From Candidatus Moraniibacteriota bacterium (GTDB taxonomy: Bacteria > Patescibacteriota > Minisyncoccia > Moranbacterales > GCA-2747515): a DNA stretch of 64,000 bases. Position 1 is the stretch's first letter. Each line of letters opens with the position of its first letter. Below the pieces are notes generated by a model that was not told the origin of the DNA, did no database searches, and saw nothing but the letters and a program-made list of their open reading frames with translations. This document shows positions 8,472-54,440 of the stretch, piece by piece. Position numbers and translations under genes: made by a program. The DNA lies in NCBI GenBank assembly GCA_016699795.1, contig CP065011.1, positions 354,474 through 418,473 on the forward strand, written 5' to 3'.

Positions 8472-8599
8472 TGGATATAACCTGCAGTGTTCTCGGCACC
8501 GACCTACTCTCCCCCCAAGGGGGTACCATCGGCGCTGGAGCACTTAACTGCTGTGTTCGGGATGGGAACAGGTGTACCCGCTCCGCTCAAGGCACCGAG
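8472..8599 (-). rRNA. rrf: 5S rRNA
   Basis: The reverse complement contains the 5S hallmarks CCCATCCCGAACACAG, GTTAAGTG, CGCCGATGGTAC and GAGAGTAGGTCGGTGCC, with the terminal helix closed by CTGCAGTGTTCTCGG/CCGAGAACACTGCAG. Confidence 0.8.
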
Positions 8600-8837
8600 A
8601 ACACTGCAGATTATATTTCGAAAAATTGACAAAGGAACTTCACTTCACTAACCGATACCCTTTTGTTGGAGTCAAAAAACTCAAACAAAAGGAAAAAAAA
8701 TGAGATTTTAAAGATTATTACATTTATTAGTACTCCTCGACTGAACCCCTTGCAGGGCGTACATCTGGAGCCTATCAACCTGATCATCTTTCAGGAAATG
8801 TTTTCGGCGCGAACGCCGAAACTTGCCTCATCTTAAG

Positions 8838-8875
<38 letters not shown>

Positions 8876-9060
8876 TCCGAACGTAGCTACTCGACAGTGC
8901 CGCTGGCGCGACAGCCGATACACCAGAGGTTCGTTCTTTCCGGTCCTCTCGTACTAGGAAAGACTCCCTTCAAGCAAGGACGCCTACGGCAGATAGAAAC
9001 CAACCTGTCTCACGACGGTTTGAACCCAGCTCGCGTACCACTTTAATTGGCGAACAGCCA

Positions 9061-9119
<59 letters not shown>

Positions 9120-9150
9120 GCGCCGTCGATATGAACTCTTGGGCGCGATA

Positions 9151-9181
<31 letters not shown>

Positions 9182-9406
9182 ATGATCTTCCACACTCCTA
9201 CATGTGATGGTCGGTTCACTAACTTCCACTTTCGTGACTGAGCGACTTGTAAGTCTTTCAGTAAAGCTGGCTTCTGCGTTTGCACTACCAGAGCGATTTC
9301 CATCCGCTCCTAGCCAACCTTTGTAAACGCCTCCGTTACTTTTTGGGAGGCGACCGCCCCAGTCAAACTACCCACCAGGCACTGTCCCCGGACCGGTAGT
9401 TATACT

Positions 9407-9582
9407 CAAAAAAGAGTGAAGACTGGAAGAAAAGATAAAAGAAAAAATCTTTTATCTTAATAATTCAAAAAAAATATTTTCCATGCTTAATGTTGGAAAA
9501 ATTACCTATTTCGTTTTGCTTACTCTCAGCCTTCGGATCCGTTTAAGTATATCTAACGGCCCAGGGTGAGAATAAAAATTTC
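9407..9582 (-). other. AT-rich expansion or intervening sequence inside 23S domain V (helix 78/79 region by eye-alignment to E. coli)
   Basis: About 175 nt of about 25% GC sequence interrupts otherwise conserved 23S blocks. E. coli has about 45 nt here. Confidence 0.5.
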
Positions 9583-10559
9583 AGCAGAGTGGTATTCCAT
9601 TGGCGACTCCACTTCAACCAAAGTCAAAGTTTCAAAGTCTCCCACCTATGCTCGGCAACTAAAATTTCTATTCAATACCAAGTTGTAGTAAAGCTCCACG
9701 GGGTCTTTTCGTCTTGCCGTAGGAAGGGGGCATCTTTACCCCCGCTGCGATTTCACCGAGCTTCTCGTTGAGACAGTTCCCAACTCGTTACACCTTTCAT
9801 GCGGGTCGGAATTTACCCGACAAGGAATTTCGCTACCTTAGAACGATTATAGTTATCGCTGACGTTCACTGGCGCTTCGGGGATTGGCGTGAACCGCTCC
9901 CGTTAACGTTCCAGCACTGGTCAGGTGTCAGCCCCTATACATCAGCTTTCGCTTTAGCAGGGACCTGTGTTTTTGGTAAACAGTCGATTGGGATCTTTCG
10001 CTGCGCCCCACCCTTTGCAAGCAAAGAGCGGGGAAGGCATATCCCTAAGTTACGCCTAGCTGTTTTGCCGAGTTCCTTAACGAGAAATCACTCATTCGCC
10101 TTGGGCTACTCGCCCTGTCCACCTGTGTCGGTTTTCGGTACGGACAATATATTACGAACCTTAGAAGTTTTTCCCGGTACCGCGCTCCCTTTTCTTCTCT
10201 CTTGCAAGCAAGAGATTCGGATGATACCTCGAATTATTGTGTGGCGGATTTACCTACCACACATTCTCGATACCCCCACGCAAATCCAATAATGCGCAAA
10301 AGGTACAGCAATACGTCACTCCATCGAATAATATATTGGTGCCGGAATATTAACCGGCTGTCCATCGACTACGCCTTTCGGCCTCGCCTTAGGATCGACT
10401 TACCCCGGGATGATTATCATAGCCCGGGAAACCTTGGACTTTCGGCGTCTTGGAATCTCACCAAGATTGCGGTTACTCATGCCAGCATTCTCACTTCCTT
10501 GCGCTCCACCGCGGGTCACCCCTACGACTTCAGTGCACAAGGAACGCTCTCCTACCAAT

Positions 10560-10650
10560 CGTTTACGTCTTATTTTACACAAAACAAAAAACATATTCAT
10601 TTATAAAAAAATGAATACTTACGTCTTATTTAAAATAAGACGTAAACGAT
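10560..10650 (-). other. Intervening sequence (IVS) hairpin replacing 23S helix 45
   Basis: The palindromic pair CGTTTACGTCTTATTTTAC ... GTAAAATAAGACGTAAACG sits between conserved CACCGAAG and GGTAGGAGAGCGTTC blocks, which is the classic helix-45 IVS site. Confidence 0.55.
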
Positions 10651-11335
10651 TTCGTATCTTCGGTGCCATGCTTAAGCCCCGTTACATTTTCGGCGCGAAA
10701 TCTCTAAGCTAGTGAGCTATTACGCACTCTTTAAAGGATGGCTGCTTCTAAGCCAACCTCCTAGGTGTCTGAGAAATTTCACTTCCTTTACCACTGAGCA
10801 TGGACTTGGGGACCTTAGATTACGATCTGGGCTGTTCCCCTTTTGAGATCCGAGCTTAGCCCCGGATTTCTGACTGCTTCGATACCACTACGAGCATTCG
10901 GAGTTTGATTGAAATTCCTACGGCGAACCGCGAAATCTCATTCAGTAGCTCTACCTCTCGTAGCTAATTAACGAAACGCTAGCCCTCAAGCTATTTCGGA
11001 GAGAACCAGCTATTGCCGAGTTCGATTGGAATTTCTCCCCTACGCACAAGTCATCCCCGCGTGTTGCACAGCGCGTGGGTTCGGGCCTCCTCTCAGTATT
11101 ACCCGAGATTCACCCTGCTCATGCGTAGCTCACCCGGCTTCGGGTCTTGTCCTTGCGACAAATCGGCCTATTAAGCCTCGCTTTCACTGCGCCTCCAGAG
11201 CATCGCCCCTTAAGCTGCCGCAAAGATCAAACTCGCTGGCCCGTTCTGCAAAAAGTACGCAGTCATCCCGCAAAAGCGGGACTCCTACTCTTTGTTGGCG
11301 TACGGTTTCAGGTCTATTTCACCTCCCTTTCGGGA

Positions 11336-11377
<42 letters not shown>

Positions 11378-11574
11378 TGAAGTAATATTTAGTCTTGGAA
11401 GTTTAGTGCTCCCTGATTCAAACGGAGTTTCACCGGCTCCGCCCTACTTGAGAATGACCTCAAGAAAAAAGATTTTTTTTCGTATACGGGACTTTCACCC
11501 TCTTTGATCGCTCTTTCCAAAGACGTTCTACTAAAAAATCGTTTTTCACCCCGATTAAACGAGTTAAGTCACCT

Positions 11575-11645
11575 CGCAACCCCTGATACCAACACTACCA
11601 ACAAATATTTTACACTTATTTGCAGTGTTGGTATCAGGTTTAGAC
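11575..11645 (-). other. Extended hairpin in a 23S domain I variable region
   Basis: Perfect inverted repeat CCTGATACCAACACT ... AGTGTTGGTATCAGG embedded in domain I. Confidence 0.4.
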
Positions 11646-11648
11646 TCT

Positions 11649-11679
<31 letters not shown>

Positions 11680-12767
11680 ACAATTGTTTTCTATTCCTTC
11701 GGGTACTAAGATGTTTCAATTCCCCGAGTTTGCCACATCATCCTATGTATTCAGATGACGGTTTGCCATTAAGGCAAGGGTTACCCCATTCGGAAATCCA
11801 CGGATCAAAGCTTATTTGACAGCTCCCCGAGGCTTATCGCAGTCTTTCACGTCCTTCATCGCTTACTTCAGCCAAGGCATCCTCCGTACGCCCTCGCAAT
11901 CTTTAATATAATTCTCATTTTCTCACTTCCCATACAATATACAATCGAAATCATATACGTTTGGGAAGGTCGGTTAGCAAAGAGAAATCTCCTTGCTAAC
12001 TTCGCAGTTATTTTTTTCCTACTTTATTCATATAGTGCAGTCACCCCTGATCCTTCGCAATCAGACACAATGCAAAATATGTACCCAAATTGTCAACTTG
12101 CTCTTTCTTTTGCGAAAGCATTCTTTTTCCAAAGTTTTAGCGACTAAAAACTTTCAAAATGGAATGTTTTCGCAAAAACTTAATTTTAAGAAAATTCAAC
12201 AACCAAGCACGAGCCGGTTTTTGATTTTTTATCTTTTCTTTCCTCTTAAACCTCACCAGAAAGAAAGAAAATTATTTTTTAAACTAACACAAGAGCGATT
12301 GTATCATCTTGTAAGAGATTGTCAATAGTACGGCAAAGTTATTCAATTAATCCGAAAAATTAAAAAATAAAAATTATAGAATCAAAAACATAATTAAAAA
12401 TAAAAATATCAAAAAATGGCTCTAATAAGAAATATTCCTATTAAAAAATAAAGTTTAAAATATTTCTCATTCCAAAGTATTTTTTACTTTTTTAGAATGA
12501 AAAATATGGAGATTTAAAGAAATAATACACATACAAACAACATACACTCTTCTGTCCTAACAAAACGAAAATAAAATGAGCACGCGTATACTATTTTTAA
12601 GTAGTTCCTTTAAAAATAAAAAGTTAAATTCTAAAATAGCCTTTAGCATTTCAATTCGGCACAATTGCCTTGTTCAAATATGAAGCTATATTTCATTTCC
12701 ATTTCATTTAAAATCAAAAGATCTACTTAGCTAATTTACAAATGAAAAGATTTCTTTTTTAAAAGAA

Positions 12768-44627: not shown

Positions 44628-47600
44628 CTACCCTCCCGTCCAAGCAAAGATTTCTTTGAAGTTCTTTATGATGAGTTCTACAACAGATTCTTTTGTTTGT
44701 GGTGTAAGGGTGATGTAGTCTTTGGTTATGGTTTCATTCCCACTCAGATCTTTTACTATGACTTTGTAAGAGTAGAGAGTTCCTGGTTTCCAAGAGGTGA
44801 GTACAATGATGTGATTCTTTGTTGGGGAAGAACTTACATTCACTGTTTTTTCTTCTCCTGCTCTTCCTTCTTTGTAGATGAGGGAGGAAGAAGCATCTTC
44901 ATCTGTTTGCCAGTTAATAATCATTTGTACTTTTCCGTTTTGTGAAAGAGCGGAGTCGGTAGAGACTCTTTCTACTGTAGGAGAAGTTTCATCTTTTTGC
45001 ATAGTGAATTCTATCTCATCAGAGAGAGTTTCATTTCCCATATCATCTCTGACTCGTACAGTAAGAACGTAGTTTTCTCCAGGAGTGAGTTCTTTGAGGG
45101 TGAGGGAGTGAGTTTGGAGGAGGGAGGGATTTCCTTCACTCTTTTGATCTTCTTCTTTGTTTTTGTTTTTGTAGGTTACAAGAGAGTCGGTAAGAGTATC
45201 AGTAAGGAAGTTTACTTTTGCTTCTCTGTCTGAAAGAACTTCTATCTTGATTTCTTTGATTTGTGGTGGAGACTTTGGTTCAAAGGTAGAGTCGGAAGAA
45301 GAGAAGAGATTTTTTGATTCATCTTCTCCTTTTACTCGGAAGTGGTAGGTAGAGTTTTCTAAAAGATTGTTTATGATAATTTCATGATCTTTTTTGAGTT
45401 CTTCACTTTTTCTTGTTTGTCCATAGTTTTCTGTGTTTCCATATTCAACAATAGAGGTAGTGGGAGTGGAAGTTTTCCATGTGATAGTTGTTTCCCCTAT
45501 TTGTTTGGAAGAAGCTTTAATGGAAGAGATGGAAGAAGGAGATTGCGTTTGGAAGGTTTGTTGGGAGGAGGTGCCTATGTTTCCGGCGGTGTCGAGAGAG
45601 AGGGCGGAGTAGTAGTATTTGGTAGATGGGATGAGGCCTCGGAGAGTTACGGAGTGGGAGGTGGTGTAGTTTTGGAGGGAGGAGTTGACTAAAGGATCGG
45701 ACATTGCGTTTTCCATTTCTTTTGTATTCCCAAATCGAATAGTACTATTCCCCACTTCATCCGTCTCCCAACTCACCACAGCACTCTCTCCTGTAATGTC
45801 TTTGACTTTGACTCCTGAGATAGAGGGAGGAGTAGATTCTGCTTGTTCACTTCCACTGTCTACTTGTTTGAGTTTTGTTGTGAAGCTTTTTTCTTCACTC
45901 TCTATGAGGGTTCCAAGATTATCTTCACAAAGAAGTTTGTAGAAGTAGGTTGTGTTAAAGATGAGTCCTCCAAGATGCAGGGAATGGAGTGTGTCATAGA
46001 TTCCTGTCGCTTCTGTTTGAGGAACTTCTTGGTAGTTTCTTGATTGGGTTCCATATTCAAGGATGCAGTTTGCTGCTTGATCCGTCTGGAAGGTTATGAC
46101 TGCTTTTTGATCAGTGAGTACTTTAGGAGGATCACTGATAGTATGAATCTTTGAAAGAGGTGCATGATTGTATTCTGGATCTAAGGTTGTTTTCATTGTT
46201 TGTATATCACTCTGTGATTCGTTTTGATTGATATCTTTAACACTCACTTGATATTCATACTCTGTATCAGGAGTAAGAGTATCGAGTACCCTGTAGTGAG
46301 ATCTATCGTATGTTGTTCCTTGTTCTGTTTGTGTGAAGGTAAGGCTTCCTTTTTTTCTGTACTGAAGGAGGAAGGATGCTTCTTCATCTGTGTTTGCTGT
46401 AATAACTGCTTTGTCATTTGAGATAAGAGATGTTTGAAGATTCGTTATGGTAGGAGGTGTTTCGTCGAGTGTTGTAGAGAATTGAAAATAGTTTCCTCCA
46501 TTATTGTCATTGGCAATGTTTCCTTGTGAGTCGGTGGAGGTAACGTAGAAATAGTAGGTGGTTCCTTGAGTAAGAGCATCTAAGGTTACTTGATGATTTT
46601 TTGTAAGAACACTTGATCCGGAGAGAGTGATAGGATCGATAAGAGATCCATTCTTGTTTTCACTGTAATGGAGTACAGAGTCTGCAGGGACATTCGTATT
46701 CCAGAATATGGTTGCTTGTGTGTTAGAAGCACTTGATACCGCTACACCACTGATAGAAGGTCCAGGATTCGTTGTGACTTCATATCCATTGCCATTATTG
46801 TCATTGACTCCGGTATTGCCTTGAGGATCAGTAGAGGCAACTCTAAAGAAGTAGGGAGTGTTTGGTGTGAGGTTGGTAAGAGTGACTCTATGAAGTCCTG
46901 ATTGTGCTTGGGTGTCAGCATAGGTAGAGACTCCTGTTTGTTTGGTATAGGTGTTGGGAGTGGTTGCATATTCTACACGAGAGTCAGAGAGTTCATCTGT
47001 TTCCCATGTGATAGTTACGGTTGTGGTGTCTTTAGATTCTACGGTTACGTTGGCAATAGAAGGAGAACTATCATCAACTCCACCACCACCCTCTCCTGCA
47101 TCTTGGATGCCATTTGCTTTGGCAGTTACTTCTTGAGAAAAGAAAGAAATATTTCCGAGTGTATCTTTGGTTCGTACTTTATACGTATAGAGAGTATTAG
47201 GATCAACACCTCCTCCTGAATCAGTAAGAAAGTTTTCTTGAGGAACTGTTCGTATATCATGAGGGTCAGTACCATAAGAACCCCCTTCTTCTTTTCTGAA
47301 GAGTTCATAACGAGAGAATTCTTGAGAAGAGATTTCTGATGGTTTGAAACTAAGAAAGACTCGATATTCAGGAGGAGTAAGATAAAGATTAGAAGTATCT
47401 TGTGTCATGATATGAGAAGGAGTCTCTATACTCTCAGTAGCAATGATTTGTGTTTCATTTCCGTATTGATCTTTGAATTGTGCGTAGACGGTATCAGGAT
47501 CACTTTGGAGTTTGATAGTTTTGTTAAGAGTATGGGGTTCCCAATCAGTATCAGAGAGATCAGGAAAAAGAGAAACTTTCATGAATCGTTGAGAGTCTTC

Positions 47601-49517
47601 AGATACAGAAAGAGTAAGGAGTGATGTGGTGTTGGTATCAAGAAGATCTTGAGTGGATGCGTCTATAGAAAGAGAAGGGTTCTCTGGAATCTTTGTATCC
47701 AATGTAAAGGTATTGGATTCTGCATTTGCTGTATTATTTGCTCCTTCATTGTCCCCTATAGTGACACGAATCTTGGCTGATCCAGAAAGATAGAGATTTG
47801 AGTGAGAAAGTGAAGGAGTCCAGGTAGCTGTGTGTGTTGTGTACGAATCTTGATTCACTGCTTTGTTTTGTACATCTTCGGGAGCTAGAGTATTAGAAGC
47901 AATGCTTTCCCATGAATCTCCATCCCAATAGGAAAAGCTCGGAGTAATAAATCCTGGAGTATTGGTTCCTGTAGTTGTATCAGGATCTTTGACTTCGTAG
48001 GTGATATCTACTGTTTTATCTGTATTGGGAGTAGCAGTTACATTTTGAATCATAGGAGAAGCGTTTACCAGATAGGTAAGCGTTACTTGAGAAAGTGTTG
48101 GAGTGGCTCCGGTGTTTTCATTAGAAAGCCAGGTAGCATACTGTAACCATTGATCATTGTTTCCTTCTAGATGTATGGGATTGGTAGATTCTCCTTGTGG
48201 TGTTGTTTCGTAAAAACTCGAAGCAAAGTCATTGCTATTTGTTGTGAGGGCGCAATCTGTAGGTCCACACCATTTGGAACCATTGTTCCAATCAGGAGAT
48301 CCTGTTAGATCTGGTGCGGTTCGGAGTTGGAAACGTATATTTGTTTGAGGAGGAATGGTTTCATTCCATTCTATTTTGGAGAGGAGGTTGGTAGGATCAA
48401 AAGAGTTAAAAGGAGAAGAAGTGAGGAGAAATGTTCCTAATGGACGCAAGATATAGGAGAGAGTGACATCGGAGATGCTTGGGATATTATCTGCATCATA
48501 CGAAGAAAAGGTAACGGTATATTGAAGATAGCGATTGCCTGTAAATTGGGATATATCTCCCCCATTGGAAATGGGAATCCACGAAGACCATGTTCCGTCA
48601 GGTGTCGGAGTATTTCCTGCACGGAGCTGAACTGAAAGAAAAGTTTCATTGGGAAGATTCTCTGTCCAAGAGATGGTTCGGAAATCTCCGATTTGGGAGA
48701 TGTCTTTGACTATACTTTCACGTGTTCCGCTCCAAAGAACACGATCATACTCCATTCCTACAGAATTAAGTCGTAAACTCGACATTTCTTGGACTGTAGT
48801 AGCAAAAATTGCTTTGTATTGGATCCACATATCATCATTTCCACTCTGAAACAAAGTATCTATTGCTTGCCCTCCAGAACTATCAGAAAAAACACTCATT
48901 TGATCACATGATGACCCTCCATCATTTGGACCACACCACGCAGTCCAATTTGATCCGTTAAAAGATGTTCGTACCCGAAAATGCACTTGGGATGTTGAAG
49001 AATTACCTGATTGTGTCCATGAAATTTTTTCCAATGTATTTCCATAATTTTCACTTCGAAAAGGAGAAGAAATGAGCTCCCCTGTATAGCCTATAAGAGA
49101 AATATCAGAAATACTCGGGATAAAATTCCCATCTGAAGTAGCAAGGGTAATGCGATACTGCCAATAACGAAACCCTTGAAACGATTCTCCAAGAGGAGCC
49201 TCTTTCGTTACCGCAGTCCACATACCATCGGAAAGATCTGAGATATTCCCTGCACGAAGTTCTACGGATATCGATGTTCCTGCGGGAAGTGTTTCCGTCC
49301 ATGTAAGCGCTTCAGCACCTACTTGAAAAGCAAAGTCTTTAATTGCCGATGTATATGTTCCACTTATTGGATCAGCTGCTCTTACTTCACCCGAAAACAT
49401 ACCAAAAAAAACGAAGGAAAACACCATCGCATACATCCAAAAGAAGATTCCTTGTTTCTTTTGTTTTGTTCTATTCATACAAGAGAAAGTATACCATACA
49501 AAAAATATTTCTTCCAA
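44628..49517 (-). CDS. Giant (about 1.6k-aa) secreted or surface protein with tandem repeated domains
   Basis: Signal peptide (start likely at MNRTKQ). Three to four copies of an about 100-aa N-terminal repeat (W-x-E-x-LP...RYLQY...PSISD). Then eight or more Fn3/PAP_N-like modules, each with a motif such as TVTITWETD...VEYA, ATIFWNT...VLHY or AVVSWETD...IRFG. Confidence 0.7.
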   Translation of the reverse strand: MEEIFFVWYTFSCMNRTKQKKQGIFFWMYAMVFSFVFFGMFSGEVRAADPISGTYTSAIKDFAFQVGAEALTWTETLPAGTSISVELRAGNISDLSDGMWTAVTKEAPLGESFQGFRYWQYRITLATSDGNFIPSISDISLIGYTGELISSPFRSENYGNTLEKISWTQSGNSSTSQVHFRVRTSFNGSNWTAWCGPNDGGSSCDQMSVFSDSSGGQAIDTLFQSGNDDMWIQYKAIFATTVQEMSSLRLNSVGMEYDRVLWSGTRESIVKDISQIGDFRTISWTENLPNETFLSVQLRAGNTPTPDGTWSSWIPISNGGDISQFTGNRYLQYTVTFSSYDADNIPSISDVTLSYILRPLGTFLLTSSPFNSFDPTNLLSKIEWNETIPPQTNIRFQLRTAPDLTGSPDWNNGSKWCGPTDCALTTNSNDFASSFYETTPQGESTNPIHLEGNNDQWLQYATWLSNENTGATPTLSQVTLTYLVNASPMIQNVTATPNTDKTVDITYEVKDPDTTTGTNTPGFITPSFSYWDGDSWESIASNTLAPEDVQNKAVNQDSYTTHTATWTPSLSHSNLYLSGSAKIRVTIGDNEGANNTANAESNTFTLDTKIPENPSLSIDASTQDLLDTNTTSLLTLSVSEDSQRFMKVSLFPDLSDTDWEPHTLNKTIKLQSDPDTVYAQFKDQYGNETQIIATESIETPSHIMTQDTSNLYLTPPEYRVFLSFKPSEISSQEFSRYELFRKEEGGSYGTDPHDIRTVPQENFLTDSGGGVDPNTLYTYKVRTKDTLGNISFFSQEVTAKANGIQDAGEGGGGVDDSSPSIANVTVESKDTTTVTITWETDELSDSRVEYATTPNTYTKQTGVSTYADTQAQSGLHRVTLTNLTPNTPYFFRVASTDPQGNTGVNDNNGNGYEVTTNPGPSISGVAVSSASNTQATIFWNTNVPADSVLHYSENKNGSLIDPITLSGSSVLTKNHQVTLDALTQGTTYYFYVTSTDSQGNIANDNNGGNYFQFSTTLDETPPTITNLQTSLISNDKAVITANTDEEASFLLQYRKKGSLTFTQTEQGTTYDRSHYRVLDTLTPDTEYEYQVSVKDINQNESQSDIQTMKTTLDPEYNHAPLSKIHTISDPPKVLTDQKAVITFQTDQAANCILEYGTQSRNYQEVPQTEATGIYDTLHSLHLGGLIFNTTYFYKLLCEDNLGTLIESEEKSFTTKLKQVDSGSEQAESTPPSISGVKVKDITGESAVVSWETDEVGNSTIRFGNTKEMENAMSDPLVNSSLQNYTTSHSVTLRGLIPSTKYYYSALSLDTAGNIGTSSQQTFQTQSPSSISSIKASSKQIGETTITWKTSTPTTSIVEYGNTENYGQTRKSEELKKDHEIIINNLLENSTYHFRVKGEDESKNLFSSSDSTFEPKSPPQIKEIKIEVLSDREAKVNFLTDTLTDSLVTYKNKNKEEDQKSEGNPSLLQTHSLTLKELTPGENYVLTVRVRDDMGNETLSDEIEFTMQKDETSPTVERVSTDSALSQNGKVQMIINWQTDEDASSSLIYKEGRAGEEKTVNVSSSPTKNHIIVLTSWKPGTLYSYKVIVKDLSGNETITKDYITLTPQTKESVVELIIKNFKEIFAWTGG

Positions 49518-49555
49518 TTTTTTTATCTCCTCGAAGAATAAAAATAAGTAACCGC

Positions 49556-50746
49556 CTATCCCTTCTCTCCGTCTCTACAAGGATTCCATTTGGATGTAAT
49601 CCGTAACATTCCTTCAGAAACAGTATAGTATCGATCTAAATTTTTTTTCATCAAAAGATCTATCATTTTTTTTCTCAAATAATAGCTTCGACACCAGCCC
49701 ATACATCCTAAATAAGAATTTACTCGAGAAAGTATTTGGTATCGCTCTCTTGTGTTCAATAAAGTTCTTTTTTTAAAAGAATTTCTCATTCTCCCTATAC
49801 TTATAAAAAAATTCCTCTTTATTCTTGGACCAATATACGTACGATACGGTTTTATACGCACGCCAAGAAAAGAAACCCCATTAAAAAGTGGTTGTAAATA
49901 TATTTTTTTTGGATGAATACTTAAAGCCAAAGAATGGCACAAATATTCAGAAATTTTTGGAAGAATTTCAAGAAGAAAATCTTTCTTCTTGTCCATAAAA
50001 ATCATATCGTCCACATATCGTCCATACCATTTCACACCAAGAGTTTCTCGAACAAAATGATCAAACCCACTCATATATATATTTCCAAAAAGTTGGGAAG
50101 TAAGATTCCCAATAGGAAATCCACTCCCTTCTTTGGCAAAAAACAAACTTTTTTTGCGAGGCAATCCAATCCAATCTTTTCTTTGTCCTTTTATAAAACA
50201 ATTATCTGTTGGATCGTTAAAAATAACTTTTTGAAGAAGATACAAAATTAAATCAAGATTATCTTCTTTTTTCTTCTTACGAAAAAAAGCTGTGCATATC
50301 ATATTCCATAGGATAGTACGATCCATTGACATAAAATATCCCTCGATATCCAATTTCAAAATCCAACATTCTTTCTGATAATTATCAGAACACGAGCGAA
50401 GAAAGTAATTCACACGATCAATTCCACGAGAAGTTCCTTTCTTTTTCCGACAGCTATACGTATCAGCAATAAATTGTTTATCAAAAACAGGGTTTATATA
50501 TTGGAAAAGAAGATGATGAACGACACGATCTCGAAAGTCAGCAGCAAATATCTCCCTCTTTACCGGTTTATGTACAATAAAACAAATACTCGGGCGGATT
50601 TCATACCGACGTTCGACAATGTCTTGATACAATTCCATGATATTTTTTTCGTATTCGATTTCAAAAGACACGGCATTCATAGTCCCTCTTTTATTTTTTC
50701 GAGCAACATAATAGGCAGAGAAAAGATCAAAAAGAAGTTTTTCCAT
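49556..50746 (-). CDS. Diversity-generating retroelement (DGR) reverse transcriptase
   Basis: RT motifs, including GFPIGNLTSQLFGNIYMSGFD and YVDDMIF. The IGxxxSQ motif is diagnostic of DGR RTs. The start is probably the internal Met (MEKLLFDLFSAYYVARKNKRG). A template repeat lies immediately upstream. Confidence 0.85.
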   Translation of the reverse strand: MEKLLFDLFSAYYVARKNKRGTMNAVSFEIEYEKNIMELYQDIVERRYEIRPSICFIVHKPVKREIFAADFRDRVVHHLLFQYINPVFDKQFIADTYSCRKKKGTSRGIDRVNYFLRSCSDNYQKECWILKLDIEGYFMSMDRTILWNMICTAFFRKKKKEDNLDLILYLLQKVIFNDPTDNCFIKGQRKDWIGLPRKKSLFFAKEGSGFPIGNLTSQLFGNIYMSGFDHFVRETLGVKWYGRYVDDMIFMDKKKDFLLEILPKISEYLCHSLALSIHPKKIYLQPLFNGVSFLGVRIKPYRTYIGPRIKRNFFISIGRMRNSFKKRTLLNTRERYQILSRVNSYLGCMGWCRSYYLRKKMIDLLMKKNLDRYYTVSEGMLRITSKWNPCRDGEKG

Positions 50747-50790
50747 AAAAAAACGAAAAAAGTACCCGAAGGTACTCCTTTTCGAAATCA

Positions 50791-50971
50791 ATACTTAAGG
50801 CACCGAACCGTTAACCCGTTAGCGCGGTTGTTGGAATTGGCGGGATTCACACTCCCAGAGTTGAAGTTGAGGTTCAACGCATTTGTACCACTTACACTAC
50901 TCGACCAATAGTTCCCGTTACTCCCCTGATTGTTGAAACTGCCATTGGAGTTGTTCCGGTTGCCCGCGACG
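50791..50971 (-). repeat. DGR template repeat (TR)
   Basis: 181 bp, about 90% identical to 51611..51791. All 18 mismatches are plus-strand T here, which is A on the minus coding strand, against C/G/A in the other copy. ORF-track ORF 50788..51147 is the TR read in the frame inherited from the target gene. Confidence 0.85.
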
Positions 50972-51151
50972 AAAGAATACCCACTCCACTTCTTGTGCAT
51001 TGTCGTAACATCACACAAAACTTCCAAAAAAAATGGAAGAAATTCCTTATAAAGAAACCTCTTTATAAGAGGGGTATTGAATTGATTAAGGGCACTCCCG
51101 CTTTCACACGTAGCAAAAGACGGCTCTCGCCCACATACAAAGAGCATATCG

Positions 51152-51496
51152 TTAGGTACAGCTAGCCTCCCATCCGGTAAGTTGTTTGGAAACCAATTCT
51201 ATGGATTCTTGCAAAACAACAAATTTTTTGAGGCCTATTTGACGAAGATCTTTTAGTATTCGCAATAAAACGCGAATATTTTCAACGCGTTCTCGAGCTA
51301 AACTAATATTCTTTTTTCTTTCTAATCGATCTTTATTGGCACGATAAATACACATCATCATCGTAATCGTTTCGTTTTTTATATGCTCACCCAGAGTAAA
51401 ACGATAATCCCGAGAAAAATTATTCACAACAAGAAAAAGTTCCAGAAGTAAATCATAGCTCGCTTTATATACCGGAAGATTATCGTACGTTGCCAT
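51152..51496 (-). CDS. DGR accessory variability determinant (Avd)-like small helical protein
   Basis: About 115 aa from MATYDNL, predicted all-helical, with a C-terminal GxW (KQLTGWEA) as in Bordetella phage bAvd. Lies between the target gene and TR. Family assignment is by position and weak similarity. Confidence 0.55.
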   Translation of the reverse strand: MATYDNLPVYKASYDLLLELFLVVNNFSRDYRFTLGEHIKNETITMMMCIYRANKDRLERKKNISLARERVENIRVLLRILKDLRQIGLKKFVVLQESIELVSKQLTGWEASCT

Positions 51497-51556
51497 ATAT
51501 TTTTTGAAAAAAATGAATGAAAAATATTTTCTGAAGGAAAAGGGGAAAAACTCAAA

Positions 51557-51573
51557 TTCCGCCTCCGGCGGAA
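51557..51573 (-). other. GC-rich hairpin downstream of VR (possible DGR homing-associated stem-loop)
   Basis: TTCCGCC-TCC-GGCGGAA about 35 nt past the target stop codon, preceded on the coding strand by GGGCGGGG, in an otherwise AT-rich context. Confidence 0.4.
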
Positions 51574-51607
51574 CCCCGCCCAAAATGCAGGGGAGTCAAA
51601 GCAGAAA

Positions 51608-52783
51608 TCAATTCTTAAGGCACCGAACCGGTAACCCGTTAGCGCGGTCGTAGGAATTGGCGGGATTCACACTCCCAGAGTTGAAGTAGAGGTTCAACGC
51701 AAGCGTACCACTTACACTACTCGACCAATAGAACCCGTAACTCCCCTGATTGCCGAAACCGCCACTGGAGCGGTGCCGGTAGCCCGCGACGGATAATTTT
51801 AAAGTACTCGCGTACGCGGTAGCGCTATCAGTAATTCCTTCTGCCGAAACAAGAACACTCCATTCTGGTTGAGTAGGAAGGCGGAAACCTGGAGGGCATG
51901 GATTATTTGTACCATCGACTCCTTGCCAGAGAGTATTGTTTTGTGGACTTCTCCAATCATAAGGAGAACTGGGAGCAAGAATAAATTGTCCATGTCCAGG
52001 AGTATCCAAAGAAGAAAGCGTTCCTGTTGTGGTACTAGTTGTAAGTTGATGTCCATCAGTTCCTCTTCCCCACTGATAATAATGTCCGTAAGATTGCGAA
52101 TCATTGAATGCTGTAGCTACGCGTGTTGCACCGAGATTTCTGTCGAGCCATACTTTTCCGTCTTTGGCGGTAATAGGACTATAAATTATTCCTTGAAATC
52201 CGCAAGGAACTCCGGAAGAAACACTACTACACGAATAAAGACATGTTGTTGAACATACAGATGGTGTAAAACATTCAGTATTGGTCGAACACGTTGCTCC
52301 GGGAGGCTTAAGGAGTTTTATATCCGCATTCGTTCCTGTTCCGAAGGTAAATACTTTATTTTTCGTTCCTGCATTAAAATCCACATCGCTTGTTTGTATC
52401 CAGCTATTCTGCGTCCCCGTAATCGTTACACCACTTGCATCTGCTTGGATATTTGCATCTTTGGAAGCATACTCCGTCCAGTTTTCTTGATTGTTAGTAT
52501 GTGTGGCAGTATTTGCTGTTACTCCTCCTATCCAACTACTTTGAATCCATCCATACGTTGCTCCTTTTATATTTTTTGAAAAGAAAAAAGAGACTCCTCC
52601 TAAGATAAGAATGGTTAAGAGGAAAGTAGAAGTGAGTTTTCTTTTTTTGGAGAGGAAAGAAAAAAAAGAAGAAAGAGAGATTTCTTTTTTTTCTTTTATA
52701 GAATAAGTATTGTTTTTTTCTTTTCGTATTCCATCAAGAGTTCTTTGTAGTTTGGGGGGAGTATTTTTTTTCGTAAACATCAT
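51608..52783 (-). CDS. DGR target (variable) protein: membrane-anchored, FISUMP/C-type-lectin-fold domain with C-terminal VR
   Basis: N-terminal TM and a Cys-rich stalk. GHYYQWGRG ... NPCPPGFRLPTQPEWSVL ... GYRHRSSGGF ... YGFYWSSS matches the Fibrobacter-type paralogous/CLec-fold DGR target pattern. The last 60 codons form the variable repeat. Confidence 0.8.
   Translation of the reverse strand: MMFTKKNTPPKLQRTLDGIRKEKNNTYSIKEKKEISLSSFFSFLSKKRKLTSTFLLTILILGGVSFFFSKNIKGATYGWIQSSWIGGVTANTATHTNNQENWTEYASKDANIQADASGVTITGTQNSWIQTSDVDFNAGTKNKVFTFGTGTNADIKLLKPPGATCSTNTECFTPSVCSTTCLYSCSSVSSGVPCGFQGIIYSPITAKDGKVWLDRNLGATRVATAFNDSQSYGHYYQWGRGTDGHQLTTSTTTGTLSSLDTPGHGQFILAPSSPYDWRSPQNNTLWQGVDGTNNPCPPGFRLPTQPEWSVLVSAEGITDSATAYASTLKLSVAGYRHRSSGGFGNQGSYGFYWSSSVSGTLALNLYFNSGSVNPANSYDRANGLPVRCLKN
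51611..51791 (-). repeat. DGR variable repeat (VR) at the 3' end of the target gene
   Basis: Cognate of the TR. It differs only at positions that are adenine in the TR coding strand. Confidence 0.85.
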
Positions 52784-53033
52784 ACTATTTTATTGTATAA
52801 TAAATGTTCTTTTTTTTGTTTGTGAAATAATCTTTTTTCTTTTTTTAGTATAGGATGTTTTGTGTTTTTTGTGAAATGGGAGTTTTATTCACACTTTTTT
52901 CTGTCTTTTCTCCCTGAGGAAAAGGGATTACCGAGTCTTTCTCTCTTTCTTCTCTCCCTTTGCCAAAAGGGAGTACCCGAGTCTTCGAGGGGGAGGGATT
53001 TGTATTGATTTCACAAAAGAATTTCATACAAAG

Positions 53034-53073
53034 AAAATCCCCCTCAATCCCCCTTTTTCTAAGGGGGAGGAAT
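53034..53073. repeat. 40-bp perfect direct repeat, copy 1 (hairpin-containing)
   Basis: AAAATCCCCCTCAATCCCCCTTTTTCTAAGGGGGAGGAAT, identical to 54401..54440. Contains a CCCCC-N9-GGGGG inverted repeat. Followed at 53118-53232 by a degenerate repeat about 115 bp long. Confidence 0.7.
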
Positions 53074-53293: not shown

Positions 53294-53572
53294 TTATTTC
53301 TTAAAAGAGTATTCTTCCAACGTTTTGAGTGTCATTTGTACTGTAGGATTAATCGTAGACACAAATATTGAAGAAGGAAATTGTTTCCTTAAAGGAGTGA
53401 GAACCTCATCAGCCCAAGAGGGTGTCAAAACTTTCACACCAGAAAAATCAATTTCTACTTTTTCATTCTTTTTAATTTCAGGAAGAGTATAGGCAGCCAA
53501 AACTAAATAAGCTTCTTTCCCCGCAGGACGAGAAACGAGCATTTCACCAAATTTTTTAAGCTCTATTTTCAT
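53294..53572 (-). CDS. DUF4325 (STAS-like) small protein
   Basis: 92 aa. The MKIELKKFGEMLVSRPAGKEAY...EKVEIDFSGVKVLTPSWADE pattern matches the DUF4325/STAS-like family. Confidence 0.5.
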   Translation of the reverse strand: MKIELKKFGEMLVSRPAGKEAYLVLAAYTLPEIKKNEKVEIDFSGVKVLTPSWADEVLTPLRKQFPSSIFVSTINPTVQMTLKTLEEYSFKK

Positions 53573-53577
53573 ACATT

Positions 53578-54156
53578 TTATTCATAGATAAAAGCAAGAC
53601 ATCCACAAATTTTTTCCTTATTTTCTAGTATACGCATTTCCCCTTTACAAAGATAAAGGTGTGCATTTCCAGAAAAAAAATCTAAAAAAATATCCATTTC
53701 TTCTACTACATTTTTTACAAATTTGAGACCATTTCCTCTGTTTTCAGGAGCCCGTCCAGATATTTTTTTTGTAAAAGCTACTTCAAGGGCATCTCGATCA
53801 AGAAGTAATGTAGCGTCCACTTTGTGAAGTGTTTCTAAGACACCTCTTCCTCTATCAGAAAGAAAAAGAGAGACTTTTCCTTCCGTATCTTTTTCATATC
53901 CAAATAAAACTCCTGGAACATCCTTCCAATTCCCAGCATTATGATCAAAAGAATTATTTCCAATTTCTCCGGCCAGCGCAGAAAAAAGATAAGCCCTTTC
54001 TTCGGGAACGCCCAAGCGGATAAGTTCTCCTGACATTCTCTCTAATCTTGCCTGAAAAACGTCTCGTGTTTCGCAATGCCAATCCGGAGAAATATCCTTC
54101 GGAATACATTCAGATCGAGAAAATTCATCTATACTTTTTTGGAGAGAAAATTTCAT
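53578..54156 (-). CDS. GHKL-superfamily ATPase (anti-sigma-factor / Ser-kinase-like HATPase_c)
   Basis: N-box-like GEIGNNSFDH, G1-like DRGRG and G2-like GNGL. Confidence 0.5.
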   Translation of the reverse strand: MKFSLQKSIDEFSRSECIPKDISPDWHCETRDVFQARLERMSGELIRLGVPEERAYLFSALAGEIGNNSFDHNAGNWKDVPGVLFGYEKDTEGKVSLFLSDRGRGVLETLHKVDATLLLDRDALEVAFTKKISGRAPENRGNGLKFVKNVVEEMDIFLDFFSGNAHLYLCKGEMRILENKEKICGCLAFIYE

Positions 54157-54400
54157 TTTTTTATCTTAGCAAAGAAGAAAAAAAATAACAACCATACTTT
54201 ATTTTTTAATTAAAAAATCCAAAAAAGCATGTCTTTAATTTTTAATTTTTTACCATTCCTAAAACACGCACCCTTACGGTATTTAAAGATAATCTGCAAA
54301 TCCAAAAGGATATTTTTTCCTTCCGTTTTCGCGAGGAGTCCGCGACGTGGCGGTCCATCTGAATTTCTGGATTACTTCGCTATGCTCACAAAGACGGAAA

Positions 54401-54440
54401 AAAATCCCCCTCAATCCCCCTTTTTCTAAGGGGGAGGAAT
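54401..54440. repeat. 40-bp perfect direct repeat, copy 2
   Basis: Identical to 53034..53073. Preceded at 54309-54400 by a degenerate copy of the same 115-bp repeat, and followed by a further partial copy. Confidence 0.7.

What the first reader, a model, noticed from the sequence alone, without database searches (positions are those of the whole stretch)
49556..52783. Complete diversity-generating retroelement: target(VR)-avd-TR-RT with 18/18 adenine-specific TR-to-VR substitutions
Two 181-bp segments, 50791-50971 and 51611-51791, are about 90% identical. In plus-strand coordinates of the first copy, the mismatches fall at:
- 50811
- 50829, 50832
- 50868
- 50882-50884
- 50912, 50913, 50919
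- 50933, 50934
- 50940, 50945
- 50951, 50952, 50955
- 50961
At every one of these the first copy has T, which is A on the minus coding strand, and the second copy has G, C or A. That one-directional, adenine-only pattern is the signature of DGR mutagenic homing. It identifies 50791-50971 as the TR and 51611-51791 as the VR.

The gene immediately downstream of the TR (49556..50746) is a reverse transcriptase carrying the DGR-specific IGNLTSQ motif and YVDD. A roughly 115-aa helical Avd-like ORF (51152..51496) sits between the target and the TR. The VR forms the last 60 codons of a membrane-anchored protein whose C-terminal domain matches the FISUMP/C-type-lectin fold used by known DGR targets.

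A single non-adenine difference sits 1 bp past the stop codon (50793 vs 51613) and may mark an IMH/IMH*-like distinction. A GC-rich hairpin (51557-51573) follows the VR. DGRs are known to be enriched in CPR genomes, but each instance is a hypervariable surface-ligand system worth recording.
Basis: partly seen in the sequence, partly recalled or inferred. Interest (0 to 1): 0.85.

Follow-up and report, generated by a model that had tools for sequence, protein, structure and literature searches.

The report
Standard diversity-generating retroelement, CPR bacterium
This is a complete, textbook diversity-generating retroelement (a reverse-transcriptase system that rewrites the tip of one surface protein at adenine-templated positions) in the chromosome of a tiny Candidatus Moraniibacteriota bacterium; it is real and well formed, but belongs to a kind already catalogued in large numbers.

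Summary
Window 50784-50971 (TR) and 51604-51791 (VR) are a 188-nt direct repeat on the minus strand with 19 mismatches. Eighteen are TR-adenine to VR-G/C/T (P about 7e-11), and 17 of these 18 change the amino acid.

The RT (49556-50746) has the DGR motif IGNLTSQ and YVDD. Its best solved relative is 8ub7_A, which I recall as Bordetella phage bRT (E 1e-30; next hit 1.6e-5). At least 40 of 80 RT relatives carry their own adenine-biased TR/VR pair. Avd (51152-51496) passes Pfam bAvd. The target's C-terminal domain passes Pfam Fib_succ_major, and its model (pLDDT 88) matches C-type-lectin folds, including TvpA, Mtd and TaqVP.

Corrections:
- The repeat is 188 nt, not 181.
- The single non-adenine mismatch is the first base of the last sense codon, not past the stop.

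Additions:
- A 13-bp UUCG-capped stem-loop directly after the TR covaries in close relatives.
- The VR flank, with two GC hairpins, is conserved in a near relative.
- The same genome holds a second cassette with identical RT, Avd and VR protein sequence.

Current activity is untested. Verdict: a new member of a known kind (architecture B1, Fib_succ_major-type target). Interest is low.

The parts
51608..52783 (-). Target gene (391 aa; NCBI QQS61678.1, IPN70_01980). Layout: K/R-rich N-terminus, one hydrophobic helix, a poorly modelled middle region, then a C-terminal FISUMP/C-type-lectin-like domain ending in the VR.
   Evidence: ORF. Pfam PF09603 scores 38.0 bits (cut-off 33.9). NCBIfam TIGR02145 scores 42.5 bits (cut-off 41.65). 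Identity to the public record.
52577..52636 (-). Predicted N-terminal membrane anchor (aa 50-69, LTSTFLLTILILGGVSFFFS, preceded by KKRK).
   Evidence: Sequence. The AlphaFold model gives a helix at 49-68. The topology (domain outside the cell) is inferred, not tested.
51611..52234 (-). C-terminal C-type-lectin-like (FISUMP) domain, aa 184-391.
51604..51791 (-). Variable repeat (VR). It covers the last 60 codons of the target, the stop codon and 4 nt beyond. A-to-N differences span 51631-51781.
51604..51630 (-). IMH-like 3' end of the VR: a GC-rich stretch CGGTTCGGTGCC followed by TTAAGAATTGATTTC. It has no A-to-N changes and differs from the TR at one position (51613 A versus 50793 T).
   Evidence: Analogous VR-A / TR-non-A differences occur in relatives. 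IMH definition from PMC5758913.
51590..51602 (-). GCTTTGACTCCCC, a conserved VR-flank motif. It is a single copy of the TTTGAC unit that is tandemly repeated 3' of the VR in many relatives.
   Evidence: Identical in the near relative L084. Enrichment of TTTGAC 3' of the VR in relatives.
51557..51593 (-). Two adjacent GC-rich hairpins 3' of the VR: CCCCTGC...GGCGGGG at 51574-51593 and TTCCGCC-GGA-GGCGGAA at 51557-51573. They are candidates for the DGR target-recognition hairpin/cruciform and/or the target gene's terminator.
   Evidence: DNA fold gives -12.4 kcal/mol, z -2.5. Terminator-like by the pattern scan. Both hairpins are conserved in L084, with loop GAA in place of GGA in the second. 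The same GGA loop with different stems is seen in L016, L060 and L067. Known requirements from PMC3240598.
51152..51496 (-). avd accessory gene (114 aa; QQS61677.1, named 'four helix bundle protein' by NCBI).
   Evidence: Pfam PF22296 bAvd scores 53.9 bits (cut-off 40). PHROG 3206 'Avd protein of DGR', E 6e-23. NCBIfam DivGenRetAVD scores 50.4 bits, below its cut-off of 80. Identity to the public record.
50784..50971 (-). Template repeat (TR), 188 nt with 51 adenines. Read in the VR frame it has 17 AAY codons, and 47 of the 50 adenines in its coding part are at codon positions 1 or 2. It lies in an unannotated 119-aa pseudo-ORF (50788-51147).
   Evidence: The pseudo-ORF gives weak Fib_succ_major and Lcl_C hits.
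50784..50810 (-). IMH*-like 3' end of the TR.
50754..50784 (-). Stem-loop immediately 3' of the TR: a 13-bp stem with one bulged G, capped by a UUCG tetraloop (CGAAAAG-G-AGUACC UUCG GGUACUUUUUUCG). It is a candidate Avd-binding stem-loop of the DGR RNA. The RT start codon follows 7 nt later.
   Evidence: Folds. Terminator-like. L002 and L003 have 12-13-bp hairpins at the same place with a covarying inner stem. Element described for 207 of 278 Avd-type DGRs in bioRxiv 10.1101/2023.10.23.563531.
49556..50746 (-). DGR reverse transcriptase (396 aa; QQS61676.1, IPN70_01970).
   Evidence: Pfam RVT_1. PHROG 1423, E 6e-90. Best PDB hit is 8ub7_A at E 1.2e-30, against 1.6e-5 for the next, a retron-type/group II-like RT. 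IGNLTSQ aligns to IGSLTSQ of that chain, and the equivalents of bRT R74 and I181 are conserved.

Best explanation
Window 49556-52783 (minus strand) is a complete chromosomal diversity-generating retroelement with the order target(VR)-avd-TR-RT.

Likely mechanism, by analogy with the Bordetella phage BPP-1 system:
1. An RNA containing the TR and its flanks is bound by an RT-Avd complex. The UUCG-capped stem-loop right after the TR is a candidate structural or Avd-binding element of this RNA.
2. The RT copies the TR into cDNA faithfully, except opposite adenines, where any nucleotide may be inserted.
3. The cDNA replaces the homologous VR at the 3' end of the target gene. Transfer starts upstream of the IMH-like last 27 nt. 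It is probably helped by the GC hairpins 14-50 nt past the VR (measured from the end of VR homology at 51604).

Because TR adenines sit almost only in the first two positions of AAY and similar codons, each round re-randomises up to about 25 residues on the ligand-binding face of a C-type-lectin-like domain. That domain is displayed by a membrane-anchored surface protein of a Candidatus Moraniibacteriota (CPR/Patescibacteria) cell.

Shown here:
- The repeat, its adenine-specific and non-synonymous pattern, and the codon design.
- RT, Avd and target family membership.
- The fold of the target domain.
- Conservation of the flank hairpins.
- Occurrence of TR/VR pairs next to related RTs.

Inferred, not shown:
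- The RNA intermediate, priming, and the role of each hairpin.
- Surface exposure of the target domain.
- Whether the element is diversifying now.
For: Repeat and mismatch pattern:
- 18 of 19 TR/VR mismatches fall on TR adenines, P 7.5e-11.
- 17 of the 18 are non-synonymous. 47 of 50 adenines in the coding part of the TR are at codon positions 1 or 2, and there are 17 AAY codons.
- None of the 128 non-adenine positions in the 161 nt upstream of the IMH-like end (50811-50971) differ, so the last transfer is recent relative to background mutation.

RT:
- Signature IGNLTSQ and YVDD. The best solved relative, 8ub7_A, has E 1e-30 against 1e-5 or weaker for retron-type, group II and Drt2 RTs.
- The equivalents of bRT R74 and I181, which promote adenine mutagenesis (PMC7826257), are conserved.
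- 40 of the 80 related RT loci (46-58% identity) have an adenine-biased TR/VR pair with the TR just upstream of the RT.

Avd and target:
- Avd is above the Pfam bAvd cut-off.

Cis elements:
- The hairpins 3' of the VR are conserved in L084. They fit the 7-10 bp GC stems placed 4-34 bp after the VR described in PMC3240598.
- The post-TR stem-loop covaries in L002 and L003 and fits the element described in bioRxiv 10.1101/2023.10.23.563531.

Context:
- The neighbourhood is chromosomal: rRNA genes, envelope genes, no phage genes.
Against: - Present-day activity has no direct evidence. The only other copy of the target available (P0121, a second cassette in the same genome) has an identical VR at protein level, so no VR variation was observed anywhere.
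- The metagenome scan for VR variants found nothing.
- The second (7-bp) VR-flank hairpin has a 3-nt GGA loop rather than the 4-nt GRNA loop required in BPP-1. It also looks like an ordinary intrinsic terminator.
- The post-TR stem-loop also fits a terminator pattern.
- NCBIfam's Avd model scores below its curated cut-off.
- No priming duplex or stop duplex could be identified above shuffled controls.
Confidence: 0.93

Rival explanations
1. It is a genuine DGR by descent but is currently silent or non-functional: a recently frozen cassette. The VR is now a fixed allele.
For: - Two cassettes in one genome carry the same VR protein sequence across all 18 substituted sites. Independent homing would be expected to make them differ.
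- The VR flank has only one copy of the TTTGAC unit that is tandemly repeated in many relatives.
- Wu et al. caution that many genomic DGRs are inactive (PMC5758913).
Against: - All three ORFs are intact and the catalytic and fidelity residues are present.
- There are no non-adenine TR/VR differences outside the IMH-like end, so there is no decay since the last transfer.
- Identical VRs are equally explained by a very recent duplication, because RT and Avd are also 100% identical at protein level.
- The single-copy motif plus double hairpin is conserved in L084, so it is not a degenerate state.
Confidence: 0.25
2. The hairpins after the VR and after the TR are simply intrinsic transcription terminators of the target gene and of an avd-TR transcript. 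They have no specific role in retrohoming.
For: Both match the stem-plus-T-run terminator pattern. Wu et al. found that some DGRs do have terminators after the target gene.
Against: - The post-TR hairpin sits 7 nt before the RT start codon, so a strong terminator there would cut off RT expression.
- Stem-loops at exactly this place are reported for 207 of 278 Avd-type DGRs, and here the stem covaries among close relatives.
- GC hairpins 3' of the VR are functionally required in BPP-1.
- The VR flank is more conserved between the window and L084 than the target protein itself, which is 62% identical.
- The two roles are not mutually exclusive.
Confidence: 0.3
3. The repeat is an ordinary paralogous duplication of a gene 3' end, and the RT is an unrelated retroelement (group II intron, retron or defence RT) that happens to lie nearby.
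For: The RT gives sub-threshold hits to group II intron, Drt3a, retron and Drt2 NCBIfam models.
Against: - All of those hits are far below their cut-offs.
- The adenine-only, non-synonymous mismatch pattern has P about 7e-11.
- An Avd gene lies between the repeats.
- The same arrangement recurs next to related RTs in dozens of genomes.
- No intron or retron RNA family was found in the window.
Confidence: 0.01

Closest known systems
Legionella pneumophila DGR (target LdtA): Wu et al. target category 'd' / CLec2 VR class, architecture B
   Same: [quoted passage not shown]
- The window's core order is avd-TR-RT with the target upstream (architecture B1).
- IMH-like end and a GC inverted repeat after the VR.
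   Different: - The host is a CPR bacterium with a 1.19-Mb genome.
- The target has a plain N-terminal membrane helix rather than what I recall (own knowledge) as the lipoprotein/TAT signal of LdtA.
- The VR-flank hairpin has a 3-nt GGA loop.
- Sequence identity to Legionella components was not measured here.
Bordetella phage BPP-1 DGR (mtd-avd-TR-brt)
   Same: - Same gene order and the same adenine-specific TR-to-VR transfer signature.
- The RT aligns to 8ub7_A (which I recall as bRT) at E 1e-30, with IGxLTSQ, YxDD and the R74 and I181 equivalents conserved.
- Avd family.
- GC hairpin after the VR and a stem-loop after the TR.
   Different: - Chromosomal, not phage-borne; phage RTs are at most 40% identical.
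- The target is a FISUMP-type membrane-anchored protein, not a tail-fibre tip.
- The spacer between the TR and the RT gene is only 37 nt, so downstream RNA elements must overlap the RT coding sequence.
- The hairpin loop is not GRNA.
CPR/Patescibacteria DGRs (Wu et al. 'CPR set'; Roux et al. DGR clade 2; Paul et al. 2017, cited from my own knowledge)
   Same: Host phylum group; cell-encoded; a single target next to the cassette.
   Different: Wu et al. report that 90% of their CPR set has architecture B3, TR-(avd)-RT, with mostly unclassified VRs. This element has B1 architecture and a Fib_succ_major/CLec2-type VR. Its RT relatives are shared with Bacteroidota and other phyla. It therefore looks like a 'core-type' DGR residing in a CPR genome. 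Its clade in the Roux et al. scheme was not determined.
Treponema denticola TvpA and Thermus aquaticus TaqVP variable proteins
   Different: Those are FGE-sulfatase-type CLec domains (category 'b'). Sequence identity is only 11-13%, and no sequence-level match to any PDB chain was found.

Membership tests
Diversity-generating retroelement (DGR) | TR/VR near-repeat whose differences are (almost) all at TR adenines | tested here: met
   18 of 19 mismatches are at TR-A, P 7.5e-11. All three alternative bases are used (T 7, G 7, C 4).
Diversity-generating retroelement (DGR) | Reverse transcriptase of the DGR clade with the signature motif [I/V/L]GxxxSQ (instead of QGxxxSP) and a YxDD catalytic motif | tested here: met
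   IGNLTSQ and YVDD are present. The closest solved structure is 8ub7_A at E 1.2e-30, against 1.6e-5 for the next RT class. Motif definition from PMC7826257. 40 of 80 RT relatives are flanked by A-biased TR/VR pairs. No formal phylogeny was built.
Diversity-generating retroelement (DGR) | VR lies in the coding sequence of a target protein, with TR adenines placed so that substitutions are non-synonymous and avoid stops (AAY codons) | tested here: met
   The VR is the last 60 codons of a 391-aa ORF. There are 17 AAY codons, 47 of 50 adenines are at codon positions 1 or 2, and 17 of 18 changes are non-synonymous.
Diversity-generating retroelement (DGR) | Variable residues carried by a C-type-lectin (or Ig) fold | tested here: met
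Diversity-generating retroelement (DGR) | Accessory protein Avd (for architecture B) | tested here: met
   PF22296 bAvd scores 53.9 bits (cut-off 40) and PHROG 3206 has E 6e-23. NCBIfam NF033474 scores 50.4 bits, below its cut-off of 80. No sequence match in the PDB.
Diversity-generating retroelement (DGR) | IMH at the VR end versus a non-identical IMH* at the TR end, marking the 3' limit of A-to-N changes | tested here: met
   The last 27 nt (GC-rich CGGTTCGGTGCC plus 15 nt) show no A-to-N change despite containing 5 adenines in the TR. They contain the only non-A difference (T/A at 50793/51613). The same kind of difference occurs in relatives. Function was not tested.
Diversity-generating retroelement (DGR) | GC-rich inverted repeat downstream of the VR (present in about a third of DGRs; 7-10 bp stem, 4-nt GRNA loop in phage DGRs) | tested here: inconclusive
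   Two GC hairpins lie 14-50 nt after the VR and are conserved in L084. The stem length (7 bp) and distance fit PMC3240598. However, the loop of the 51557-51573 hairpin is 3-nt GGA, and the element also fits a terminator pattern.
Diversity-generating retroelement (DGR) | Structured RNA flanking the TR (Avd-binding stem-loop, priming duplex, stop duplex) | tested here: inconclusive
   A 13-bp UUCG-capped stem-loop with a bulge lies directly after the TR and covaries in L002 and L003. This is consistent. Priming and stop duplexes were not distinguishable from shuffled controls.
Diversity-generating retroelement (DGR) | Ongoing mutagenic retrohoming (VR heterogeneity at TR-A positions within a population; invariant TR) | not testable with these tools
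   No read data were available. The metagenome scan gave 0 hits. The only second copy has an identical VR at protein level. An independent assembly (L001) has an identical TR 3' part.
Wu et al. 2018 architecture B1 / target category 'd' | Core order avd-TR-RT on one strand; VR overlapping DUF1566, DUF823 or Fib_succ_major motifs | tested here: met
   Gene order. The Fib_succ_major hit spans aa 228-390 and so includes the VR. Definitions.

The most novel reading that the evidence does not exclude
The non-coding flank just 3' of the VR may be a lineage-specific target-recognition element that is not described in the DGR literature I could read. Here it is one TTTGAC unit plus two GC hairpins. 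In many relatives from several phyla it is 2-4 tandem 8-nt TTTGACTA-like units followed by a short-loop GC hairpin.

Separately, the whole roughly 3.3-kb cassette has recently been copied to a second chromosomal site with its VR intact. That hints at a way DGR cassettes spread within a genome.
Probability: 0.2. Interest if true: 0.45.

Novelty: new member of a known kind. Interest (0 to 1): 0.2.

Why it matters
As an individual element it adds little. DGRs with avd-TR-RT order and Fib_succ_major/CLec2-type targets are well catalogued, and CPR bacteria are known to be rich in DGRs.

Its value is as a clean, complete and apparently undecayed example in a closed 1.19-Mb Moraniibacteriota genome whose public annotation calls the RT and the target 'hypothetical protein':
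- It marks one membrane-anchored lectin-like protein (with a paralogue) as the hypervariable surface ligand of an episymbiont-type cell.
- The twin cassettes with identical VRs offer a natural test of whether one RT/TR serves two targets, and of how fast VRs diverge.
- The conserved VR-flank and post-TR hairpins are compact candidates for the cis elements of a non-phage DGR.

Tried and rejected
1. Exact-protein look-ups of the window's RT and Avd and of P0121 in the contig index returned nothing on record. The source genome is not in the index, so DNA of the second cassette could not be read.
2. The species-representative genome scan found no relative closer than 58% RT identity, so the window's species is absent there.
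3. A metagenome scan with a TR/VR-core pattern carrying N at every TR adenine gave 0 hits, so there was no population-level VR comparison.
4. The full-length target model was poor (pLDDT 56.7), and Foldseek against the PDB gave only noise. This was replaced by a domain-only model.
5. Sequence and profile searches of the target and Avd against PDB sequences gave no hit.
6. Second-VR hypothesis for the patch where the two target paralogues differ (aa 90-147) was rejected. Only 6 of 18 substitutions can be explained by changes at adenines alone, 9 need non-adenine changes, and no template-like copy exists in the window.
7. Additional VRs for this TR elsewhere in the window: none.
8. RNA duplex searches for a TR-3'/spacer priming duplex and for an upstream/downstream 'stop' duplex gave energies equal to shuffled controls.
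9. The MAFFT alignment of the post-TR hairpins was out of structural register. Covariation was therefore read directly from the sequences, not counted formally.
10. Phage origin was rejected. There are no phage genes among the neighbours, and phage RTs are at most 40% identical.

Full report
**1. Observation**

Aligning window 50770-50990 with 51590-51810 on the minus strand, the repeat finder and a position-by-position tabulation all show one direct repeat of 188 nt. It runs 50784-50971 versus 51604-51791, offset 820 nt, with 19 mismatches.

In each, copy 1 has A on the minus (coding) strand and copy 2 has T (7), G (7) or C (4). With 51 adenines in 188 nt, the chance that 18 or more of 19 mismatches fall on adenines is 7.5e-11. 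No further copy of this template, with adenines treated as wildcards, exists in the window.

Two details need correcting:
- Homology extends through the stop codon and 4 nt beyond, so the repeat is 188 nt, not 181.
- The single non-adenine mismatch (coding-strand T at 50793, A at 51613) is the first base of the last sense codon. The TR reads TAT, the VR reads AAT, and TGA follows. It is not a base past the stop.

**2. Codon design**

Read in the frame of the target gene, the TR has 17 AAY codons. Of the 50 adenines in its coding part, 47 are at codon positions 1 or 2. Seventeen of the 18 adenine substitutions change the amino acid.

None of the 128 non-adenine positions in the 161 nt upstream of the last 27 nt differ. 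The VR was therefore copied from this TR recently relative to background mutation.

The last 27 nt consist of GC-rich CGGTTCGGTGCC followed by TTAAG[T/A]ATTGATTTC. They show no A-to-N change although the TR has five adenines there, and they contain the only other difference. This is what an IMH/IMH* pair looks like (definition in PMC5758913). Relatives often show the same VR-A versus TR-non-A difference near the 3' end.

**3. Proteins**

RT (49556-50746, 396 aa):
- It matches Pfam RVT_1 and PHROG 1423 (E 6e-90).
- Its best solved relative is 8ub7_A at E 1.2e-30; I recall this entry as the Bordetella phage RT bRT, the output naming it only 'Reverse transcriptase'. Retron-type, group II intron and Drt2 RTs score 1.6e-5 or weaker.
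- In that alignment IGNLTSQ lies on IGSLTSQ of the chain. The signature DGR motif [I/V/L]GxxxSQ and the two residues shown to promote adenine mutagenesis, R74 and I181 (PMC7826257), are conserved.
- NCBIfam gave only sub-threshold hits to group II, Drt3a, retron and Drt2 models.

Avd (51152-51496, 114 aa):
- It is above the Pfam bAvd gathering score (53.9 against 40 bits) and matches PHROG 'Avd protein of DGR'.
- It is below NCBIfam's Avd cut-off (50.4 against 80 bits).

Target (51608-52783, 391 aa):
- It passes the Pfam and NCBIfam Fib_succ_major/FISUMP cut-offs over residues 208/228-391, a region that includes the VR.
- It has a K/R-rich N-terminus followed by one hydrophobic helix at aa 49-68/50-69.

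**4. Fold of the target domain**

A full-length model was poor (pLDDT 56.7), and Foldseek found nothing. A model of residues 184-391, built with 69 aligned homologues, reached pLDDT 88.4 and pTM 0.86.

- dozens of canonical C-type lectin domains

Three of these (TvpA, Mtd, TaqVP) are experimentally studied DGR variable proteins. The scores are moderate, but the assignment is consistent.

**5. Relatives**

The RT has thousands of homologues (7815 with E of 1e-20 or better among the candidates scored). A scan of species-representative genomes returned 80 loci with RTs 46-58% identical, mostly Patescibacteria and Bacteroidota.

A self-comparison of every locus found an adenine-biased direct repeat (80% or more of mismatches on A) in 40 of these 80 (43 of the 83 loci held, counting none for L001-L003). 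In each, the A-rich copy lies just upstream of the RT and the other copy 700-2,600 nt further upstream. Most loci without a pair are contigs with too little upstream sequence. This is functional evidence that the RT sits in a DGR clade.

Phage RTs are at most 40% identical. The window's neighbours are rRNA genes, an ABC/MacB-FtsX pair, a 1,616-aa FN3-repeat surface protein, a glycosyltransferase and an O-antigen-ligase-like protein. The element is therefore chromosomal.

**6. Cis elements**

(a) After the VR. The flank reads GCTTTGACTCCCC, followed by two GC hairpins: CCCCTGC...GGCGGGG at 51574-51593 and TTCCGCC-GGA-GGCGGAA at 51557-51573.
- The closest target relative with DNA (L084, 62% protein identity) has nearly the same flank, with both hairpins perfect and loop GAA in place of GGA in the second. 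This non-coding stretch is therefore constrained.
- Other relatives keep a GGA loop with different stems.
- Guo et al. showed that a GC hairpin or cruciform, with a 7-10 bp stem placed 4-34 bp after the VR, is needed for efficient homing in BPP-1 (PMC3240598).
- The present element fits in stem length and distance but not in loop (3-nt GGA rather than 4-nt GRNA). It also fits a terminator pattern.

(b) After the TR. Starting at the last TR base is a 13-bp stem with one bulged G, capped by UUCG (50754-50784), and the RT start codon follows 7 nt later.
- The two closest RT relatives (L002 and L003, 69% and 64% RT identity) have 12-13-bp hairpins at the same place.
- The outer stem GAAAA/UUUUC is conserved. 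The inner stem is fully exchanged: AGUACC/GGUACU, GACGC/GCGUC and GCCUC/GAGGC.
- Handa et al. report putative Avd-binding stem-loops just downstream of the TR in 207 of 278 Avd-type DGRs. These are typically about 9 bp, with flipped-out bases and GNRA or UNCG tetraloops (bioRxiv 10.1101/2023.10.23.563531). The window's element fits that description.
- I could not identify the priming or stop duplexes above shuffled background.

**7. Source and second copy**

Exact look-ups show that the window's target, Avd and RT are NCBI proteins QQS61678.1, QQS61677.1 and QQS61676.1 (IPN70_01980 and IPN70_01970 for the target and RT). They come from a Candidatus Moraniibacteriota MAG assembled as one contig of 1,186,598 bp.

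The same contig encodes a second set:
- an identical RT (QQS61273.1, IPN70_05310)
- an identical Avd (QQS61274.1)
- a 95%-identical target (QQS61275.1, IPN70_05320)

The flanking STAS-like, ATPase-like and glycosyltransferase genes have single records. At least the cassette of about 3.3 kb is therefore duplicated at a distant site.

The two targets have identical VR protein sequences. All 18 differences lie in residues 90-147, and that patch is not adenine-directed.

Identical VRs mean there has been no independent homing since the duplication. Because RT and Avd are also identical, the duplication may simply be very recent, so this does not decide whether the element is active. Multiple near-identical DGRs in one genome are known (about 10% of complete genomes that have any DGR, PMC5758913).

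An independent assembly (Logan SRR11674012, L001) is 100% identical over 48991-50862 and breaks inside the TR. That is expected for a de Bruijn graph at the 35-nt stretch the TR and VR share.

**8. Classification and novelty**

In the scheme of Wu et al. this is architecture B1 (avd-TR-RT with an upstream target) and target category 'd' (VRs in DUF1566/DUF823/Fib_succ_major domains, CLec2 class, exemplified by Legionella). They note that 90% of their CPR set has architecture B3 instead. This element therefore looks like a 'core-type' DGR living in a CPR genome, in line with its RT relatives being shared with Bacteroidota.

Nothing in the window departs from the known kind. It is a new member of a known kind, and the public record annotates the RT and target only as 'hypothetical protein'.

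Interest is low (0.2). It is a clean example, not a surprise.

The only leads with some novelty are side observations:
- the conserved VR-flank motif, with tandem TTTGACTA-like octamers in relatives
- single-ORF Avd-TR-RT fusions in some relatives
- the twin cassettes with identical VRs

**9. What remains untested**

- Current activity, which needs read-level VR heterogeneity.
- The RNA intermediate and priming.
- The function of each hairpin.
- Surface exposure of the target.
- The DNA of the second cassette.

Noticed in passing
L004, L010, L016, L018, L019, L032, L050, L055, L063, L068 and others, 0-60 nt 3' of each VR; window 51590-51602 (single copy): Many relatives of this DGR carry 2-4 tandem 8-nt units (TTTGACTA, TTTGACAA or TTCGACTC; ATTTAACN or ATTTATCN in several other relatives such as L062, L064 and L079) between the VR end and a GC hairpin, and not after the TR. 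TTTGAC occurs 43 times in the 75 nt after the VR across 44 loci. It occurs once after the TRs, and about 1.4 would be expected from background. The DGR papers I read do not mention it. It could be a target-recognition element or a promoter-like feature.
   Followed up: partly
L004 1653-3617 (+); proteins P0015, P0029, P0052, P0063, P0072, P0098: In a minority of close relatives, avd, the TR and the RT form one continuous ORF of 640-660 aa. The order is Avd, then a linker that includes the TR-encoded peptide, then the RT. In the window the three are separate: Avd and the RT share a frame and the TR pseudo-ORF is in another. The word 'fused' does not occur in Wu et al. 2018.
   Followed up: partly
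Not in the window: IPN70_05310-05320 of the same 1.19-Mb genome; compare window 49556-52783: A second DGR cassette sits on the same contig, with identical RT and Avd proteins and a 95%-identical target whose VR is identical. All 18 amino-acid differences cluster in residues 90-147 (window 52343-52516) and are not adenine-directed.
   Followed up: partly
window 53031-53073 and 54398-54440: A 43-nt direct repeat (one mismatch; its 34-nt core is exact, with 0 matches expected by chance) contains a CCCCCTT...AAGGGGG hairpin. The two copies bracket a two-gene module: a DUF4325 STAS-like protein (53294-53572) and a 192-aa protein with no Pfam hit (53578-54156). The module lies immediately upstream of the DGR target gene. 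This could be a small inserted module or a recombination site.
   Followed up: partly
window 44628-49517 (-): Directly downstream of the RT lies a giant surface protein of 1,616 aa (NCBI start) with many FN3 / purple-acid-phosphatase-N-like repeats. It has two paralogues more than 90% identical elsewhere in the same 1.19-Mb genome (QQS60944.1 and QQS61040.1). Weak similarity to this gene's region is also seen downstream of the RT in L002.
   Followed up: partly
window 8491-11906 (-): A 23S rRNA gene spans 3,201 nt against a 2,925-position model, so it carries about 276 nt of insertion. A 5S gene is adjacent, and no 16S gene lies anywhere in the 64-kb window. By my own knowledge, insertions and unlinked 16S genes are common in CPR bacteria. 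The insertion itself was not examined.
   Followed up: no
window 35320-63997: Every ORF of 200 aa or more in this 28-kb stretch is on the minus strand, showing very strong gene-strand co-orientation around the cassette.
   Followed up: no
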